A DNA stretch of 63,471 nucleotides from a bacterium (GCA_041640655.1 JBEPZV010000009.1:1-63471), one strand, 5' to 3'. Shown: positions 34,388-41,930, counted from the stretch's first letter. Made by a program: numbers and translations. Notes: generated from the letters alone by a model not told the origin.

Positions 34388-34774
34388 TCACGGACTTGGC
34401 GCTCTCCAGGGCGCTGATGTCAGGGTTGTGTGGTAGCCTTTGTACTGCTGGGTCGCAGGATCATATCGCAAGAAGACGATCTCGATCGGTCGCCCGGGCG
34501 GACTCTGCGTGATCTTGCGCAGATCTTCAACGGAATTGACCGGTCGCCCGTTGATCCTCATGATGAGATCGTCTGGTCGTAAGCCGGCCTGTTCCGCCGG
34601 CGACCCGGGCTCCACCCGCTGGACCAGGAAGACCATATTCCCGATAACCCCGATCATCGCCCGAGGGGTTTGACCCCGCTCATCTGAGGAGACCACCCGA
34701 TCACGATCACTGGCTCCAAGCAGGATGCCGAGCCCAAGGACCAAAGAGGCTGCGAGGATCGTTCTCGCTCGCAT
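34388..34774 (-). CDS. Exported stand-alone PDZ-domain protein
   Basis: Signal-like N-terminus; VQRVEPGSPAEQAGLRPDDLIMRINGRPV; CAGGAGGA RBS. Confidence 0.88.
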   Translation of the reverse strand: MRARTILAASLVLGLGILLGASDRDRVVSSDERGQTPRAMIGVIGNMVFLVQRVEPGSPAEQAGLRPDDLIMRINGRPVNSVEDLRKITQSPPGRPIEIVFLRYDPATQQYKGYHTTLTSAPWRAPSP

Positions 34775-34788
34775 AACGTCCTCCTGTT

Positions 34789-35166
34789 TCAAATCCAAAC
34801 GCATTCCTCGCAACCGCACGGTTCCATGCGGCCACACTTGGTCGGAACGCACCCCCAATCGCGACTGTATCCGCCTTCGCAATAACTGCAGATGCCTCCT
34901 ACACACCGATAGCCCCATAGGACAGGCCCCGTGCGGCAGCAATAGGGGTTACACGGACATTCCCGTGGCCCCCGTTGAGGGGAGGCATTCAGAAGAGGGC
35001 TCCACTCCACGGTTTCGGGCAGAATGTAGGCGCTCACGCCCTTATCCTGTAGGGTACTTGTAGAGATCCGGACTTCACCCGATCCTATCGGAGCTCTTCC
35101 AAGAGAGCGCGGTTCTTCCAGAGGGACCAAAAGCAACAGCATCAAGATGCACCACAACCGTCGCAT
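34789..35166 (-). CDS. Secreted prepro-like cysteine-rich peptide (12 Cys in the last ~56 aa)
   Basis: AAGGAGGT RBS; MRRLWCILMLLLLV signal; C-terminus CPCNPYCC...CGCEECVWI. Confidence 0.8.
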   Translation of the reverse strand: MRRLWCILMLLLLVPLEEPRSLGRAPIGSGEVRISTSTLQDKGVSAYILPETVEWSPLLNASPQRGPRECPCNPYCCRTGPVLWGYRCVGGICSYCEGGYSRDWGCVPTKCGRMEPCGCEECVWI

Positions 35167-35188
35167 CTTCCACCTCCTTTGCCGTCTT

Positions 35189-35253
35189 ATTTTATGAGGT
35201 CCCCCTGAGATGTCAAATTTAAAAAAAATACTGGCATAAGCTGTCCTTATGCC
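35189..35253 (-). promoter_or_regulatory. Island promoter cassette, copy 1
   Basis: TTGACA-N16-TAAAAT, A-tract, perfect inverted repeat GGCATAAG-CTGTC-CTTATGCC (35233-35253). Confidence 0.8.
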
Positions 35254-35722
35254 CGTCAAGATACAAACAAGAGGCGGGCGCGAATCGCTTGGTTGTGAGT
35301 CGCACCGTCCCTTCCTCTTGGGCCAGCTCGTGGCTTTGTGGATGAGGAAAGGTCAAGGAAAGAGCTAGGAAGCTGTAAGAGAGAAGCTTGCTTGTCGTCC
35401 GTGTTGGGAGCCAGGAATTCATAGTCGACCGACCATGGGATAGGGTCCAAGCAGCCCGATAGATCATCGGTCACACCGTTTGAGAAGCCGAGAAGTTCTA
35501 CCGGAAGTAGGCGCTGTAGCCCAGCGCCGACCGCACCAGCGATATAATATGACAGCGATATAAGCCATGGCCTTTCGCATTATGGGATGGTCCCCAAGCA
35601 TCCATGCGCTCTTTCTCATGCCGATACATACCAGAGGACGGCAGCGACCCCGTCTCCCACCAAGTTGGCAAGAAATACTCGAATTTATCTTGAGAAGCCT
35701 CCCGTTTGATTGATCAAGCCCC

Positions 35723-39168: not shown

Positions 39169-40416
39169 TCACGGCTGCTGAACGAAGATGACGTCGTAAG
39201 AGAACCGATTGGCCGGCCCAGGCCCGTAGACCTTCGCTCGATAGCGGAATTCGTTGCCGTGCGGATCCCGACGGCGGCTCTCCCGGTAATTCAGCTCGAT
39301 TCCCCCGATGCCCGACTGGGCCAACGTCATCAGCTCTCCGGGCTCCGTCCTCCCGTTGACGTTTCGATCGAACCACAGGCGCAGCGTGGCGAACGCGGCA
39401 TCACGCGCGTCGAGGACACCGTCTCTATTGTCATCCAGTTCCACCAAGGCCAGATACCCGTTCTGAGCATGGCGTCCCGAACGGAGGCGGGTGACGTTGC
39501 CAAACAGCTCGCGCCCGCTCTCAATGAGCCCGTTCCCGTTGCGATCCAGCACCAGGAGGGCCTCGTCCCCTTGAATCCAGCCCGTCCGCATCGGATGTCC
39601 GTTGCCCAGGAGATCGAAGCGAACCCCGGCCGACAGCCCCACCAGGTGAAACCCATCCCCCCGTGTGTCAATCACAATGGGAGTGCCCGGGCATGCGCTG
39701 TTGCACCCTATCTCCCCTCCATCGCGCAGCCCATCGCAATCGTTGTCCTTCCCGTCCCAGCAGAGATTGCAGTCGGCACACCCGAAGTCTAATGGGCATC
39801 CTGATCCATCGAAGAACTGCGGCCCTTCATCAGCTCTCGGATTCACCGCCGGATCCCCATCGTCACAATCTGGAATACCACTGCTGCACCAATCATCTGG
39901 ACTCTCATCATTGGGATCCGCTTCAATCTCAATGCAATATGTATCCCCATCCGCGTCTCTCTTCTTTTTTCGCCTGACATTCTCAGAACAAGTACAACCG
40001 TAAGAAGCACAAGGATCAGGAGGTGCAATATAGCCCACCTTACACCACCGCTCTTCATTAACGCTTACACAATGATAGTTGTTACACCAGAATTGGGGAT
40101 TGGACGGGTCTACATAGCAAACGTCTTTAGCCTCGCTTTTGGTCCTGGGAAACTCATACCGGAAGTCGCATTTTAAGGAGGACAGAGCGTGAGCTGCAAT
40201 GCTTTCTATCGGAGCTGGTGATGCCTTGCCGACATTGACGACTGGTTCGTCAAATAATGTCCGGGGCGCCATTTGCGCGAAGGGTGCGATCAGCGGCGGT
40301 TTAACGGGACTCGGACGTCGGGGAAATGTAGCAGCGAAAAATACAGCCAATGCCGTCAACATAATGGACATAAGGAGAGCGACGCGATAAGGGCTTGATT
40401 TAACTCCGATGCTCAT
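39169..40416 (-). CDS. Exported Cys-rich protein with DCDD/DGxDNDCDG metal-binding motifs and C-terminal FrpC-type self-processing-module homologue
   Basis: N-terminal signal/TM; 18 Cys; TPIVIDTRGDG..VRFD..TGW..DEALLVLDRNGNGLIESGRELFGN..NGYLALVELDDNRDGVLDARDAAFATLRLWFDRN. Confidence 0.85.
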   Translation of the reverse strand: MSIGVKSSPYRVALLMSIMLTALAVFFAATFPRRPSPVKPPLIAPFAQMAPRTLFDEPVVNVGKASPAPIESIAAHALSSLKCDFRYEFPRTKSEAKDVCYVDPSNPQFWCNNYHCVSVNEERWCKVGYIAPPDPCASYGCTCSENVRRKKKRDADGDTYCIEIEADPNDESPDDWCSSGIPDCDDGDPAVNPRADEGPQFFDGSGCPLDFGCADCNLCWDGKDNDCDGLRDGGEIGCNSACPGTPIVIDTRGDGFHLVGLSAGVRFDLLGNGHPMRTGWIQGDEALLVLDRNGNGLIESGRELFGNVTRLRSGRHAQNGYLALVELDDNRDGVLDARDAAFATLRLWFDRNVNGRTEPGELMTLAQSGIGGIELNYRESRRRDPHGNEFRYRAKVYGPGPANRFSYDVIFVQQP

Positions 40417-40572
40417 CGCTGCCCCGATTGAGACACCACCACATGACTTGCAGCCACAGCGCTCACGAACAGCGACTCCTGCGCGGTGGATGGATCGTGC
40501 CCAGCGTCGTCCTCCACCAGCCGTCCGCAGCGCACGCGGCGGAATGTCAAGCGTTATCTACATCGACTCCGC

Positions 40573-41670
40573 TCAGAACTCTACCCAGCAAAATTCAACA
40601 ACGCGCGTACGTGGCCCTAATAGCCTGATGGCCACGGCCTCCGTTGGCCGAGAGAAACCGATCAGCAAGCTACCCCAGGGGTTCTCGCGGCTGTCCACGA
40701 CTGGAAACCAACTCCGGCCCAGGTCGGGAGAGAAGAACCGTCCACGCACTTTATTTTCCCGAGATTGCACATCAATGAACAGGCCCTCCTGCGGTAGGAA
40801 AGCAAAGGAGAGAACTTCGATCTTCGTCGCAGGAGGATCAAAGAGGGTACGGAGATCATCCACCAACACTGATCTCAATACCCGCCCATCACGATCCAGC
40901 ACAACGATCATCCTGGCTCCTGGGAGCCAGGTATAAACCCTGTCTCCGATAACCTCAAAGGCCGGCGGGGAGAAGCCCTCCTCAGGATCAAGATCAAGTG
41001 GATCAAGCTCTCTTGGAAATAAAGATCTGGGGAGGGATGCGATCAGGGGCACGCCGTCTGCGGAAATCTTGCGAATGAGCCCATACTCATCATCGAGGTT
41101 ATACTTTTGCCAGTCGTGTCCAAGCATCCATATATTGCCATCATCATCAGCGGCGATCTTATGCACACCGAAGGGATCTGTTTTTATAATCCGCTCAAGT
41201 GAGCAACTCGTATTGTACTCAAGCAGGGCGGATGCTCTCTGACCTTTCGAGTTCGTGGCTATCAGAGCGATAAGAATAGTTCCATCTTTCGTAACCGCGA
41301 CGTCCCAGAGGCCTACATCGTGAACATCTGGAAGAGAGTCAATGGGCGAGAGTCGGCAAACTAACTCTCCCTTGCGATTGTGCACCCAAACCACAGGTTG
41401 ATCTGGTTCCGACAGGTCATGAATAATGAATCCGTTTCTGTCCCACTTAGGCACCCCGGCCACGTTCTCCAATACGTAAGTCCTCGTTACTGTCTTTATA
41501 GTCATCGCCCCGCGTGCAGGAGGAGCGGAGTGTTGCGTGTAAGGACCGATCAACAGAATGGCGAGAACCATCGTTTTGATCGCCACGTCCCGTCTCCTCA
41601 GGCAAGAAACCGCCCTGTCCGCTAAGCCGTGACGATCAGAGGTCACTTTCCCGGCTCCAGGATTCCCCAT
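40573..41670 (-). CDS. Exported hypothetical protein, probable beta-propeller
   Basis: Hydrophobic N-segment; blade-like motifs DVAVTKDGTILI, IAADDDGNIWML, IRKISADG, VVLDRDGRVL. Confidence 0.65.
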   Translation of the reverse strand: MGNPGAGKVTSDRHGLADRAVSCLRRRDVAIKTMVLAILLIGPYTQHSAPPARGAMTIKTVTRTYVLENVAGVPKWDRNGFIIHDLSEPDQPVVWVHNRKGELVCRLSPIDSLPDVHDVGLWDVAVTKDGTILIALIATNSKGQRASALLEYNTSCSLERIIKTDPFGVHKIAADDDGNIWMLGHDWQKYNLDDEYGLIRKISADGVPLIASLPRSLFPRELDPLDLDPEEGFSPPAFEVIGDRVYTWLPGARMIVVLDRDGRVLRSVLVDDLRTLFDPPATKIEVLSFAFLPQEGLFIDVQSRENKVRGRFFSPDLGRSWFPVVDSRENPWGSLLIGFSRPTEAVAIRLLGPRTRVVEFCWVEF

Positions 41671-41709
41671 GGTGCCCTCCCTGCCCTTCGTTCTCTCCTC
41701 GCTGCCCAT

Positions 41710-41766
41710 AGTATATGAGGCTCTCTCGGAATGTCAAAAAAATAGCCGCATGAAGTGTTTTTATGG
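41710..41766 (-). promoter_or_regulatory. Island promoter cassette, copy 3
   Basis: TTGACA-N16-TATACT; 31 bp identical to copy 2 (A7-TAGCCGCATGAAGTGTTTTTATGG). Confidence 0.8.
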
Positions 41767-41930
41767 AGCCCCGGGGTTGGTCTTCCCGCGGTGCCCGTGG
41801 GGGTGCTGGTCTTGTTCTCGGAGCGCGTGGATGGCCCCGGTTGATGGCTCAATCGGCCTGTCTTGAAAAGTCGAGGAGGTGGCGCACATAATGCGGACGT
41901 GCGAATGCGGCGGAATCGGGAGAGGGGAGG

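What the first reader, a model, noticed from the sequence alone, without database searches (positions are those of the whole stretch)
34388..41770. Candidate undescribed system: modular island of co-regulated secreted cysteine-rich proteins, each with an exported partner
Seen: between the cimA leader and a glycosyltransferase, all credible genes are on the minus strand, much of the DNA is visibly more AT-rich, and nearly all products have signal-like N-termini. Three modules each begin with a homologous promoter cassette: (A) probable beta-propeller + 18-Cys protein with an SPM-like domain; (B) 8-Cys protein + helical-repeat protein + broken bacteriocin-like gene + small membrane gene; (C) 12-Cys peptide + PDZ protein. 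The Cys patterns are unrelated, so the promoter is shared rather than the cargo. No integrase or RiPP-modifying enzyme is visible. Inference: a regulon of disulfide-rich effectors or signals with cognate receptor/immunity/chaperone partners, assembled as swappable cassettes.
Basis: partly seen in the sequence, partly recalled or inferred. Interest (0 to 1): 0.88.

Follow-up and report, generated by a model that had tools for sequence, protein, structure and literature searches.

The report
Variable secreted-protein island, shared promoter
A stretch of a hot-spring acidobacterium's chromosome that differs between close relatives holds three small sets of genes for exported proteins, each behind a copy of the same strong promoter; it is a clear case of promoter reuse and gene shuffling, but what the proteins do is still unknown.

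Summary
Between cimA and a PMT-type glycosyltransferase lies a 7.9-kb stretch of lower GC (57% against 64-65%). It holds three minus-strand units, each starting with a copy of one ~85-nt cassette: AT-rich dyad, T-run, TTGACAT, conserved spacer, TAnAnT. The cassette occurs only here in this genome. Within the family it was found in 6 of 8 genomes and always precedes exported, non-housekeeping genes.

The same interval measures 0.4 to 17 kb across seven species of the genus. One presence/absence difference has its crossover inside the cassette. Two genes here are in-frame chimeras left by deletions.

The cysteine-rich ORFs are real genes (dN/dS 0.15-0.5). Two pairs also occur in other genera without the cassette: a small Cys-rich protein with a TPR-like solenoid, and one with a PDZ protein. 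So the pairs are older than the promoter.

The 18-Cys protein ends in a FrpC-type SPM domain, but with Thr-Pro where FrpC has Asp-Pro.

Co-regulation, binding and function remain untested. An antagonism role is my best guess, at about one in three.

This scan has noted similar shared promoter cassettes before secreted Cys-rich genes in other genomes. Verdict: real, moderately interesting, a new variant of known kinds (promoter reuse, strain-variable secretome loci).

The parts
41705..41776 (-). Cassette A: degenerate AT-rich dyad, short T-run, TTGACAT, 16-nt spacer, TATACT. It is a recombinant: the 5' flank matches G002 cassette 1 and the 3' half matches G002 cassette 2.
40573..41670 (-). A1, 365 aa: N-terminal membrane-anchor-like helix plus a beta-propeller. 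Lineage-restricted: 5 proteins including itself in the 5.8-billion-sequence collection.
39169..40416 (-). A2, 415 aa: signal/anchor-like N-terminus, an 18-Cys region with a weak MopE-type motif, and a C-terminal SPM domain.
39172..39681 (-). SPM (self-processing-module) domain of A2, starting at Pro246. The residue before it is Thr, where FrpC has Asp414.
39018..39102 (-). Cassette B: degenerate dyad, T-run, TTGACAT, spacer, TACACT.
38524..38964 (-). B1, 146 aa: signal-like N-terminus (VRA/QN), a 9-Cys domain and a helical tail. Homologues in three genera are always followed by a B2-family gene.
36776..38521 (-). B2, 581 aa: signal-like N-terminus and a TPR-like alpha-solenoid. It starts 2 nt after the B1 stop and belongs to a multi-copy family of the class.
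36359..36763 (-). Chimeric remnant ORF, 134 aa. Residues 1-64 match the N-terminus of an SPM-protein paralogue (98% identical to the copy on contig C35). Residues 65-126 match the C-terminus of an ABC-2 permease that is intact in G002. It marks a ~6.2-kb deletion relative to G002.
36085..36213 (-). Remnant (last 42 codons, preceded by a stop) of a gene for a protein with a Gly/Ala/Cys-rich hydrophobic tail. An intact 117-aa relative lies on G004:C44.
35723..35986 (-). Small membrane protein, 87 aa, with a GGAGG ribosome site. A homologue follows the 117-aa gene in G004:C44.
35178..35262 (-). Cassette C: stable 8-bp hairpin (-13 kcal/mol at 37 C) plus T-run, which is terminator-like. Then TTGACAT, spacer and TAAAAT.
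34789..35166 (-). C1, 125 aa: signal-like N-terminus and a 12-Cys domain ending in CVWI. It is an in-frame chimera of two G002 genes. The Cys domain has dN/dS 0.15-0.18.
34388..34774 (-). C2, 128 aa: signal-like N-terminus and a single PDZ domain. It starts 14 nt after the C1 stop.

Best explanation
The cimA-glycosyltransferase interval is a genus-specific accessory locus that varies between species.

In this genome it holds three separately promoted units. Each starts with a copy of one portable ~85-bp cassette. The cassette most likely acts as a strong sigma-70-type promoter with a T-rich UP-like element; this is inferred, since no RNA data exist. In its hairpin-forming copies it probably also terminates the unit upstream.

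The cargo is older than the cassette.
- Two units are conserved two-gene pairs. A small exported disulfide-rich protein is followed within 2-14 nt by an exported protein with a peptide- or protein-binding fold. B1 pairs with a TPR-like solenoid, and C1 pairs with a PDZ protein.
- The third unit pairs a membrane-anchored beta-propeller with a Cys-rich protein that ends in an SPM domain.

Units are gained, lost and fused in two ways, both shown by comparison with sister species: homologous recombination between cassette copies, and deletions inside genes.

Function is inferred, at about one chance in three. The pairs would be secreted ligand/binder sets used in competition between bacteria, with a disulfide-stabilised toxin-like protein and a periplasmic binding or immunity-like partner. 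The reason is that the relatives' versions of the locus also carry ABC-transporter units and proteins with hydrophobic Gly/Ala/Cys tails followed by membrane proteins.

My confidence is about 0.85 for the architecture and its evolution and about 0.35 for the function. The figure given is a blend.
For: Cassette
- It is real and unique to the island in this genome.
- A covariance model finds 16 matches in 6 of 8 family genomes: G000 3, G002 7, G005 3, G004 1, G001 1, G007 one weak, G003 and G006 none.
- All 15 strong copies precede exported or membrane proteins.
- It has near-consensus hexamers.

Variable interval
- About 0.4 kb (G003), 0.7 (G004), 1.1 (G006), 3.1 (G001), 7.7 (G005), 7.9 (G000) and 17 kb (G002).

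Recombination
- The G000 cassette A 5' flank is 80% identical to G002 cassette 1, and its 3' half is 89% identical to G002 cassette 2. Background values are 0.43-0.72. This brackets a 2.2-kb ABC unit present only in G002.
- C1 and ORF 36359-36763 are chimeras.

Vertical descent and constraint
- Island dS is 0.09-0.31, against 0.15 in the flanks.
- dN/dS: A1 0.31, A2 0.19, B1 C-terminal part 0.52, B2 0.26, C1 Cys domain 0.15, PDZ 0.31, against cimA 0.04 and GT 0.21.

Conserved pairs
- B1-type with B2-type at G000:C9, G000:C91, G001:C3, G002:C11, G004:C6, G007:C54 and G010:C62.
- C1-type with PDZ in G000, G002, G005 and G007. The C-terminus is CVWI or CYRI, a hydrophobic-x-hydrophobic end.

Folds.

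Competition-type content in relatives.
Against: - No transcript data, so promoter activity, strength and co-expression are inferred.
- No family hit links any product to a toxin, bacteriocin or immunity protein.
- The partners are 1 to 5 times larger than the Cys-rich proteins, which is unusual for immunity proteins.
- The B2 family is in 125 of 151 genomes of the class, often in several copies, and mostly without a B1-type neighbour. Only 1 of 26 loci inspected had one, and 2 of those 26 had no upstream DNA. This argues that B2 has a general role of its own.
- The hairpin is stable in cassette C and a few others, but not in the A/B type (-4 to -5 kcal/mol, no better than shuffles). Helix support across 12 copies is modest: 74% of cells paired, 2 pairs with double changes.
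- Several genes in G002 and G004 are split into two ORFs, and G000 carries remnants, so part of the locus is decaying.
- The propeller of the propeller/Cys-rich/SPM fusion protein is not clearly homologous to A1 (E 0.015).
Confidence: 0.6

Rival explanations
1. A true regulon. The dyad upstream of the T-run, or the conserved GC-rich spacer between the hexamers, is the operator of a dedicated transcription factor encoded elsewhere. The units would then be switched on together by a signal.
For: Positions outside the two hexamers are conserved across 12 copies: CATAA...ATGC, the T-run, and the spacer YCCGAGGGRGCYTC. The dyad centre lies about 60 nt upstream of the expected start, a usual place for an activator site (read from the sequence).
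Against: No regulator gene was found in the island here or in G002. Near-consensus -35 and -10 boxes with a T-run need no activator. Shared descent of recently copied cassettes explains the conservation equally well. The cassette subtypes differ in the dyad. No RNA data exist.
Confidence: 0.3
2. A metal (copper) or redox handling locus. The Cys-rich proteins bind metal. The ABC-2 permeases, the thioredoxin-like/NHL protein and the MopE-type motif serve metal-centre assembly.
For: - Weak MopE 'putative metal-binding motif' in A2 (E 0.056) and its paralogues (E 1e-5 to 3e-4).
- G002 has ABC2_membrane_2/DUF3526 permeases and an AhpC/TSA-NHL protein behind a cassette.
Against: The MopE hits fall below the Pfam cut-off: best 26.0 bits, on a G002 paralogue, against 27; A2 itself scores 14.1. 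No metallochaperone, cupredoxin or P-type ATPase family was found. The transporter and thioredoxin units are absent from this genome. Dense Cys patterns in exported proteins of a thermophile are ordinarily disulfides; this last point rests on general knowledge, not a call.
Confidence: 0.1
3. A decaying dump of foreign or orphan genes with no present function. The repeated promoter would be a leftover of tandem duplication.
For: - Lower GC and GC3.
- Remnants and chimeras in G000.
- Split ORFs in G002 and G004.
- The interval is empty in G003, G004 and G006.
Against: dN/dS is 0.15-0.52 for all six testable genes, with dS like the flanks. The gene pairs are conserved across genera at 37-46% identity with the Cys positions kept. 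All main genes here have intact reading frames and ribosome sites.
Confidence: 0.12
4. An integron-like or otherwise mobile cassette array moved by a site-specific recombinase, with the ~85-bp unit as its attachment site.
For: A repeated imperfect-palindrome unit sits at the head of each gene set. The number of units varies between species.
Against: No integrase, transposase or tRNA was found in or beside the island. The observed crossover is what homologous recombination between repeats gives. dS equals that of the flanks, so there has been no recent transfer. Other junctions lie inside genes, not at cassettes. In a pattern scan of metagenome contigs, only 1 of 36 hits was a full cassette, and it is the G001-type locus.
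Confidence: 0.05

Closest known systems
Promoter reuse / 'putative mobile promoters' in prokaryotes (Nijveen, Matus-Garcia and van Passel 2012, PMC3575422; only the search listing and the start of the abstract were seen)
   Same: Highly similar promoter regions stand in front of non-homologous genes within one genome and its relatives.
   Different: Here all copies but two (both before the fusion gene, G002:C2 and G005:C27) sit in one variable locus. They precede only exported-protein units and themselves serve as crossover points for gain and loss of units.
Streptococcus pneumoniae blp locus with its variable bacteriocin-immunity region (starts of abstracts of bioRxiv 10.1101/2022.05.27.493805 and PMC6422914 seen). 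That its operons share a conserved regulated promoter is recalled, not checked.
   Same: A chromosomal locus at a fixed place whose content of small secreted proteins and partner genes varies between strains, with ABC transporters in some versions.
   Different: - No two-component regulator or peptide pheromone.
- No double-glycine leaders or C39 exporter found.
- The products carry Sec-type signal-like N-termini and many cysteines.
- The partners are large TPR, PDZ or propeller proteins, not small membrane immunity proteins.
- No bacteriocin family hit.
[quoted passage not shown]
   Same: The A2 C-terminal 170 residues align to the FrpC SPM from its first residue, Pro415, at E 5e-32. The Trp and the three EF-hand-like calcium loops are kept.
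   Different: - Thr, not Asp, precedes the Pro.
- The counterparts of D421 and D478 are Arg and Asn.
- The domain is C-terminal, with no RTX repeats.
- The protein has a signal-like N-terminus rather than a type I secretion context.
Shared promoter or 5' cassettes before secreted Cys-rich gene families, noted earlier by this scan in other genomes (e1-1211282, e1-2864724, e1-1550738; AI notes)
   Same: A duplicated terminator/promoter unit stands in front of secreted cysteine-rich genes, with chimeras and gain or loss of genes between the copies.
   Different: Those cases share the start of the coding region within one protein family. Here only the non-coding promoter unit is shared, and the cargo families are unrelated.

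Membership tests
SPM / FrpC-type self-processing module (Pfam PF26745) | Sequence similarity to the SPM over its whole length | tested here: met
   phmmer against PDB chains: 6SJW FrpC SPM at E 5.3e-32, aligned from Pro415. All 120 listed homologues carry PF26745. The Atlas names its clusters 'SPM domain-containing'.
SPM / FrpC-type self-processing module (Pfam PF26745) | Scissile Asp-Pro at the N-terminal edge (D414-P415). D414A abolishes cleavage (PMC7846742 passage). | tested here: not met
   A2 has Thr-Pro. Among the 120 best homologues the residue is Ser in 66, Thr in 45, Cys in 2 and Asp in 0. My motif did not find the site in the other 7.
SPM / FrpC-type self-processing module (Pfam PF26745) | EF-hand-like calcium loops (D462-E474, D499-D511, D521-E532) and W451 | tested here: met
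   Read from the alignment: DRNGNGLIESGRE, DDNRDGVLDARD, DRNVNGRTEPGE and TGW are kept. The counterparts of D421 and D478 are Arg and Asn.
SPM / FrpC-type self-processing module (Pfam PF26745) | Sits inside an RTX protein exported by type I secretion (PMC7078468 says SPM is exclusive to RTX proteins) | tested here: not met
   Pfam found no RTX or hemolysin-type repeat in A2. The SPM is the C-terminal domain, and the N-terminus is signal/anchor-like.
PDZ domain protein | Match to PDZ models above the curated cut-off | tested here: met
   PF17820 at E 2.5e-15, 56.4 bits against a cut-off of 27. No protease domain was found.
TPR-like alpha-solenoid (B2) | All-helical repeat fold with TPR-type profile similarity | tested here: met
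   AlphaFold2 model at pLDDT 92.5, helices throughout. A family profile hits consensus TPR chains at E 5e-13 to 5e-11 over positions 396-486 only. Foldseek gives only generic solenoids. B2 itself has no Pfam family.
Beta-propeller (A1) | Propeller fold | tested here: met
   Model at pLDDT 79.8 with repeated four-strand sheets. Foldseek matches WD40 and NHL propellers at E about 3e-9, TM 0.4-0.6. No Pfam family above cut-off.
Promoter reuse ('putative mobile promoter') | Homologous upstream region in front of non-homologous genes | tested here: met
Intrinsic terminator as part of the cassette | Stable GC-containing hairpin followed by a T-run | tested here: inconclusive
   Cassette C: -13 kcal/mol, z -4.1, flagged by the scan. 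A/B-type copies fold no better than shuffles. Pair counts across 12 copies: 74% paired.
Class II bacteriocin / blp- or pln-type locus | Bacteriocin or immunity family hits, double-glycine leader with C39 ABC exporter, two-component regulator | tested here: not met
   No such family was found in the window's island or in the G002, G004 and G005 extras. The ABC units in G002 and G005 are ABC-2 permeases plus an ATPase, without a peptidase domain.
Integron gene-cassette array | Tyrosine-recombinase integrase beside the array, with promoterless cassettes ending in attC | tested here: not met
   No integrase was found. Each unit carries its own promoter-like cassette. attC structure was not tested.

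The most novel reading that the evidence does not exclude
The island is a Sec-dependent antagonism locus of a kind not described for Acidobacteria. Disulfide-rich secreted toxin-like proteins would each be neutralised in the producer's periplasm by a cognate scaffold protein (TPR solenoid, PDZ or beta-propeller). 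A portable terminator-promoter cassette would let the lineage add, drop and recombine such units.

Within it, A2 would represent a very large non-RTX branch of the self-processing module, with Ser, Thr or Cys in place of Asp before the Pro. That branch may cleave or ligate by another chemistry, or may have become a plain calcium switch.
Probability: 0.2. Interest if true: 0.75.

Novelty: new variant of a known kind. Interest (0 to 1): 0.45.

Why it matters
- It gives a clean natural example of how a short promoter unit spreads within one locus and then serves as the recombination handle by which gene units are gained and lost between species.
- It defines three conserved, undescribed gene pairs: a small disulfide-rich exported protein with a TPR-like, PDZ or propeller partner. 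Each pair makes a concrete, testable binding prediction.
- It shows that the SPM domain, used in protein engineering as a calcium-triggered anhydride generator, has a large environmental branch that lacks the catalytic Asp. The chemistry of that branch is open.

Tried and rejected
- Complex prediction of PDZ (residues 22-128) with the C1 Cys domain (residues 56-125), using 3-row alignments: no verdict. The score was 0.01 against a mark of 0.32 and the partner's own fold was uncertain. I draw nothing from it.
- RNA sequencing runs holding the island: none was listed. Expression, transcript starts and co-regulation could therefore not be examined, and read laying was not used.
- Rfam over 33000-43000 at E <= 1: only a sub-threshold CsrC match, 16.4 bits against a gathering score of 61. 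Rejected as chance.
I used the genome search with the same alignment instead.
- Protein Atlas for B1: no usable feature hit, and its own model has pLDDT 0.43.
- Metagenome pattern scan for the cassette: 36 loci, of which only L115 matches the whole cassette (52 bits). That locus carries the same two proteins as the G001 locus. The other 35 match only the typed pattern.
- A conserved RNA or DNA hairpin as the core of the cassette: support is modest and depends on the subtype.
- Methylamine-dehydrogenase-like small-subunit/propeller pairs were considered from memory for the Cys/Trp-rich protein plus propeller units. No Pfam hit supports this, so I dropped it.
- Bacteriocin and immunity families in Pfam and NCBIfam: none.
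- tRNA genes as an integration site: none in 28000-48000.
- Of the 30 B2-family loci fetched, I inspected 26. L042 and L043 were left out as the island's own orthologues. L055 and L062 were simply not examined.
- The four weakest B1 matches (E 1.9e-5 to 1.2e-4, covering only about 37 residues) were not examined.

Full report
WHAT IS THERE

The window is the first 63,471 bases of contig C9 of a 3.13-Mb, 128-contig assembly with 63.7% GC. Earlier notes of this scan call the organism a hot-spring acidobacterium. Named homologues of one island protein come from Pyrinomonadaceae and Blastocatellia, which fits.

Between cimA (32344-34032, minus strand) and a PMT_2-type glycosyltransferase (41931-43586, plus strand), all credible genes lie on the minus strand. 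The interval is 57.4% GC against 64.4% and 65.0% in the flanks. Its genes have GC3 of 0.53-0.70, against 0.77-0.80 for the two flanking genes.

THE CASSETTE

Three homologous copies lie on the minus strand at 41776-41705 (A), 39102-39018 (B) and 35262-35178 (C). Each has these parts in order:
- an AT-rich imperfect dyad (CATAA...ATGC);
- a run of T;
- TTGACAT;
- a conserved GC-rich spacer of 16-17 nt;
- TAnAnT.

A GGAGG-type ribosome site and an ATG follow 25-70 nt further on.

A profile of the three copies finds only these in the whole assembly (E 8e-25 to 2e-19; next best 1.1). They are the best sigma-70-like sites of the region, where 12 sites were found against 2.7 +/- 1.9 in shuffles.

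A sequence-only covariance model built from 12 copies finds 16 matches in 6 of the 8 genomes of the family:
- G000 3, G002 7, G005 3, G004 1, G001 1;
- G007 one weak match (E 0.005);
- G003 and G006 none.

A pattern scan of metagenome contigs gave 36 loci. Only one matches the full cassette, and it carries the same two proteins as the G001 locus.

The hairpin is stable and terminator-like in copy C (-13 kcal/mol, z -4.1) and moderately so in a few others. In the A/B type it folds no better than shuffles. Pair counts over 12 copies give 74% paired and two pairs with double changes. The dyad is therefore not a uniformly kept structure.

THE CARGO IN THIS GENOME

Unit A
- A1 (365 aa) models as an N-terminal helix (residues 14-44) plus a beta-propeller: pLDDT 79.8, Foldseek matches to WD40 and NHL propellers at E about 3e-9. 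It has four relatives in the 5.8-billion-sequence collection.
- A2 (415 aa) has 18 Cys and a weak MopE-type motif. It ends in an SPM domain (PF26745), the self-processing module of FrpC.

Unit B
- B1 (146 aa, 9 Cys) is followed 2 nt later by B2 (581 aa).
- B2 models as an alpha-solenoid (pLDDT 92.5). Its family profile matches consensus TPR proteins.
- Downstream lie three more features:
  - a chimeric remnant ORF (36359-36763);
  - the last 42 codons of a gene for a protein with a Gly/Ala/Cys-rich hydrophobic tail (36085-36213);
  - an 87-aa membrane protein gene.
- In G004:C44 an intact 117-aa relative of the tail gene is followed by a homologue of that membrane protein.

Unit C
- C1 (125 aa, with 12 Cys after the signal-like segment, ending in CVWI) is followed 14 nt later by a 128-aa protein with a single PDZ domain.

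The three Cys-rich proteins show no similarity to each other. No integrase, RiPP enzyme, regulator or tRNA was found. That the N-termini look like signals or anchors is my reading of the sequences; no predictor was available.

A VARIABLE LOCUS

The distance from cimA to the glycosyltransferase, measured from tblastn coordinates, is about:
- 0.4 kb in G003, 0.7 kb in G004 and 1.1 kb in G006, none of which has an island;
- 3.1 kb in G001, with one cassette, a 131-aa Cys/Trp-rich exported protein and a 339-aa A1-like protein;
- 7.7 kb in G005, 7.9 kb here and 17 kb in G002.

G002 has six cassettes in this locus. Its units, running from the glycosyltransferase end toward cimA, are:
1. a truncated small ORF, a membrane protein and an ABC ATPase;
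2. A1 and A2;
3. B1, B2 and an SPM paralogue;
4. a thioredoxin-like/NHL protein, a 94-aa 10-Cys protein and two ABC-2 permeases;
5. a Cys/Trp-rich protein and an A1-like protein;
6. a C1-type protein and PDZ.

In G005 the first cassette drives a 266-aa protein with a Gly/Ala/Cys-rich tail, a membrane protein and an ABC ATPase. A seventh G002 copy (on contig C2) and a G005 copy (on C27) precede a 640-aa protein that fuses an NHL-like propeller, a Cys-rich stretch and an SPM domain. No copy precedes a housekeeping gene.

HOW THE CONTENT CHANGES

The 5' flank of cassette A in G000 is 80% identical to that of G002 cassette 1. Its 3' half is 89% identical to G002 cassette 2. Background values in the same matrices are 0.43-0.72 (the DNA matches agree). 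The 2.2-kb ABC unit that G002 has between those two cassettes is therefore present or absent through a crossover inside the cassette.

Other junctions lie inside genes:
- C1 joins the N-terminal part of the G002 unit-5 gene to the Cys domain of the unit-6 gene, in frame.
- ORF 36359-36763 joins the first 64 residues of an SPM paralogue (98% identical to a copy on contig C35 of this genome) to the last residues of an ABC-2 permease. This marks a deletion of about 6.2 kb relative to G002.
- B1's promoter and first 40 residues also differ between G000 and G002 (55% identity), while the rest is 86% identical.

ARE THE GENES REAL?

G000 compared with G002 by Nei-Gojobori:

Gene | dN/dS
A1 | 0.31
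A2 | 0.19
B1 (83 codons) | 0.52
B2 | 0.26
C1 Cys domain | 0.15 (0.18 against G005)
PDZ | 0.31
cimA | 0.04
glycosyltransferase | 0.21

dS of the island genes (0.09-0.31) is like that of the flanks (0.15). The island was therefore already present in the common ancestor of these species and has been inherited vertically since.

Some genes in relatives are split into two ORFs: A1 and B1 in G002, and B2 in G004. I cannot tell decay from assembly error there.

THE PAIRS ARE OLDER THAN THE CASSETTE

A search with the B1 domain in 151 genomes of the class found matches in 10 of them. The 7 best places (E <= 6e-11) each lie directly upstream of a B2-family match:
- G000:C9, G002:C11 and G004:C6;
- G010:C62, in another family of the order;
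- G007:C54, in another genus;
- G000:C91, a second pair in this genome;
- G001:C3.

Only the island copies and the G004 copy have the cassette.

The C1-type domain was found in 4 of 151 genomes (G000, G002, G005, G007), each time followed by the PDZ gene. In G007 (46% identity, cysteines kept, C-terminus CYRI) there is no cassette.

Against a strict pairing, the B2 family itself is in 125 of 151 genomes, often in several copies (7 matches in G000). This tally includes one genome, G129, that the tool marks as unpublished; no other claim rests on it. Of 26 other B2-family loci inspected, only one had a small Cys-rich exported ORF upstream, and two had no upstream DNA.

THE SPM DOMAIN

A2 residues 246-415 align to the solved FrpC SPM (6SJW) at E 5e-32, starting exactly at the Pro that follows the scissile bond. 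The Trp and the three EF-hand-like loops are kept.

In FrpC the residue before that Pro is Asp414. It forms the anhydride of the 'clip-and-link' reaction, and D414A abolishes cleavage (passages of PMC7078468 and PMC7846742). A2 has Thr there.

Among the 120 best of 1,362 homologues (E <= 1e-5), the residue is Ser in 66, Thr in 45, Cys in 2 and never Asp. My motif missed the site in 7. These proteins are not RTX proteins. The SPM is their C-terminal domain, behind varied N-terminal parts such as NHL, metalloprotease and FN3 domains by precomputed Pfam labels.

PMC7078468 states that the SPM is exclusive to RTX proteins. A full-text search for 'self-processing module' or 'clip-and-link' gave 25 papers. 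None of the 24 listed titles or abstract starts concerns a non-RTX or Ser/Thr-Pro branch. In PMC12538545 the terms Acidobacteri, Ser-Pro and Thr-Pro do not occur. Its supplementary alignment of homologues was not seen and may bear on this.

HOW IT MOST LIKELY WORKS

Shown:
- a portable promoter-like unit in front of unrelated exported-protein units;
- a hot spot whose content varies between species;
- a crossover within the unit;
- constrained coding sequences;
- conserved gene pairs.

Inferred:
- The unit is a strong sigma-70-type promoter with an UP-like T-run. Some copies also terminate the unit upstream.
- The small disulfide-rich proteins bind their TPR, PDZ or propeller neighbours. All three are protein- or peptide-binding folds. 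The B1/B2 genes are 2 nt apart, and C1 ends in a hydrophobic-x-hydrophobic C-terminus of the kind PDZ domains bind.
- The locus serves competition between bacteria. This is my best guess, at about one in three. It rests on the strain-variable mosaic, the ABC units, and the tail-protein-plus-membrane-protein sets in relatives. No family hit supports it.

COMPARISON AND VERDICT

The closest known things are:
- promoter reuse (PMC3575422, abstract start only);
- strain-variable bacteriocin-immunity loci such as blp (abstract starts only), whose defining parts are not found here;
- FrpC's SPM, for A2 alone.

This scan has noted similar shared promoter cassettes before secreted Cys-rich genes in other genomes. 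These are AI notes and were not checked here.

The finding is real and tidy. The 'one undescribed system' reading is too strong. The gene pairs and the Asp-less SPM branch are the parts most worth a bench test.

Noticed in passing
window 39172-39681 (A2 SPM); proteins P0003-P0122: A large branch (1,362 hits at E <= 1e-5) of FrpC-type SPM domains. They sit at the C-terminus of non-RTX proteins with varied N-terminal domains. Ser, Thr or Cys stands before the Pro and never the catalytic Asp (0 of 113 sites read).
   Followed up: partly
window 34024-34060, minus strand: A strong 15-bp hairpin followed by a T-rich tail, about 40 nt upstream of the likely cimA start. It could be a leader attenuator of cimA or the terminator of unit C. 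Rfam gives no family for it.
   Followed up: no
G000 contig C35, locus L012 2857-5053: A paralogue of the SPM protein split into 552-aa and 169-aa ORFs; the G001 relative is one 723-aa protein. Its first 64 codons are 98% identical to the remnant ORF in the island, which suggests recent exchange between the two loci.
   Followed up: partly
window 36776-38521 and G000 contigs C45, C91, C59, C19, C25: The B2-type ~600-aa TPR-like protein belongs to an uncharacterised, multi-copy family found in 125 of 151 genomes of the class. It has 7 matches in this genome and no Pfam family.
   Followed up: partly
L011 7173-7457 (G002): A 94-aa exported protein with 10 Cys in SCS/CxxxC-like spacing. It gives a sub-threshold hit (E 0.0015, 18.6 bits against a cut-off of 50) to the 'Cys-Xaa-Xaa-Xaa repeat radical SAM target' family. 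No radical SAM gene was seen nearby.
   Followed up: no
L013 8088-8888 (G005), L070 1492-1845 (G004:C44), window 36085-36213: A family of proteins ending in a Gly/Ala/Cys-rich hydrophobic tail, each followed by membrane or ABC-transporter genes. It has no known family. The copy in this window is a remnant.
   Followed up: partly
window 38524-38964 (B1): B1 and its G004 homologue have an odd number of cysteines (9). One may therefore be free or form an intermolecular bond.
   Followed up: no
window 39018-39140 and L011 15640-15790: In A/B-type cassettes the similarity extends some 35 nt further upstream (CGGCTTCGYCTTCGACCAYCTGA...) than in the other copies. The copied unit is therefore longer in this subtype.
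   Followed up: no
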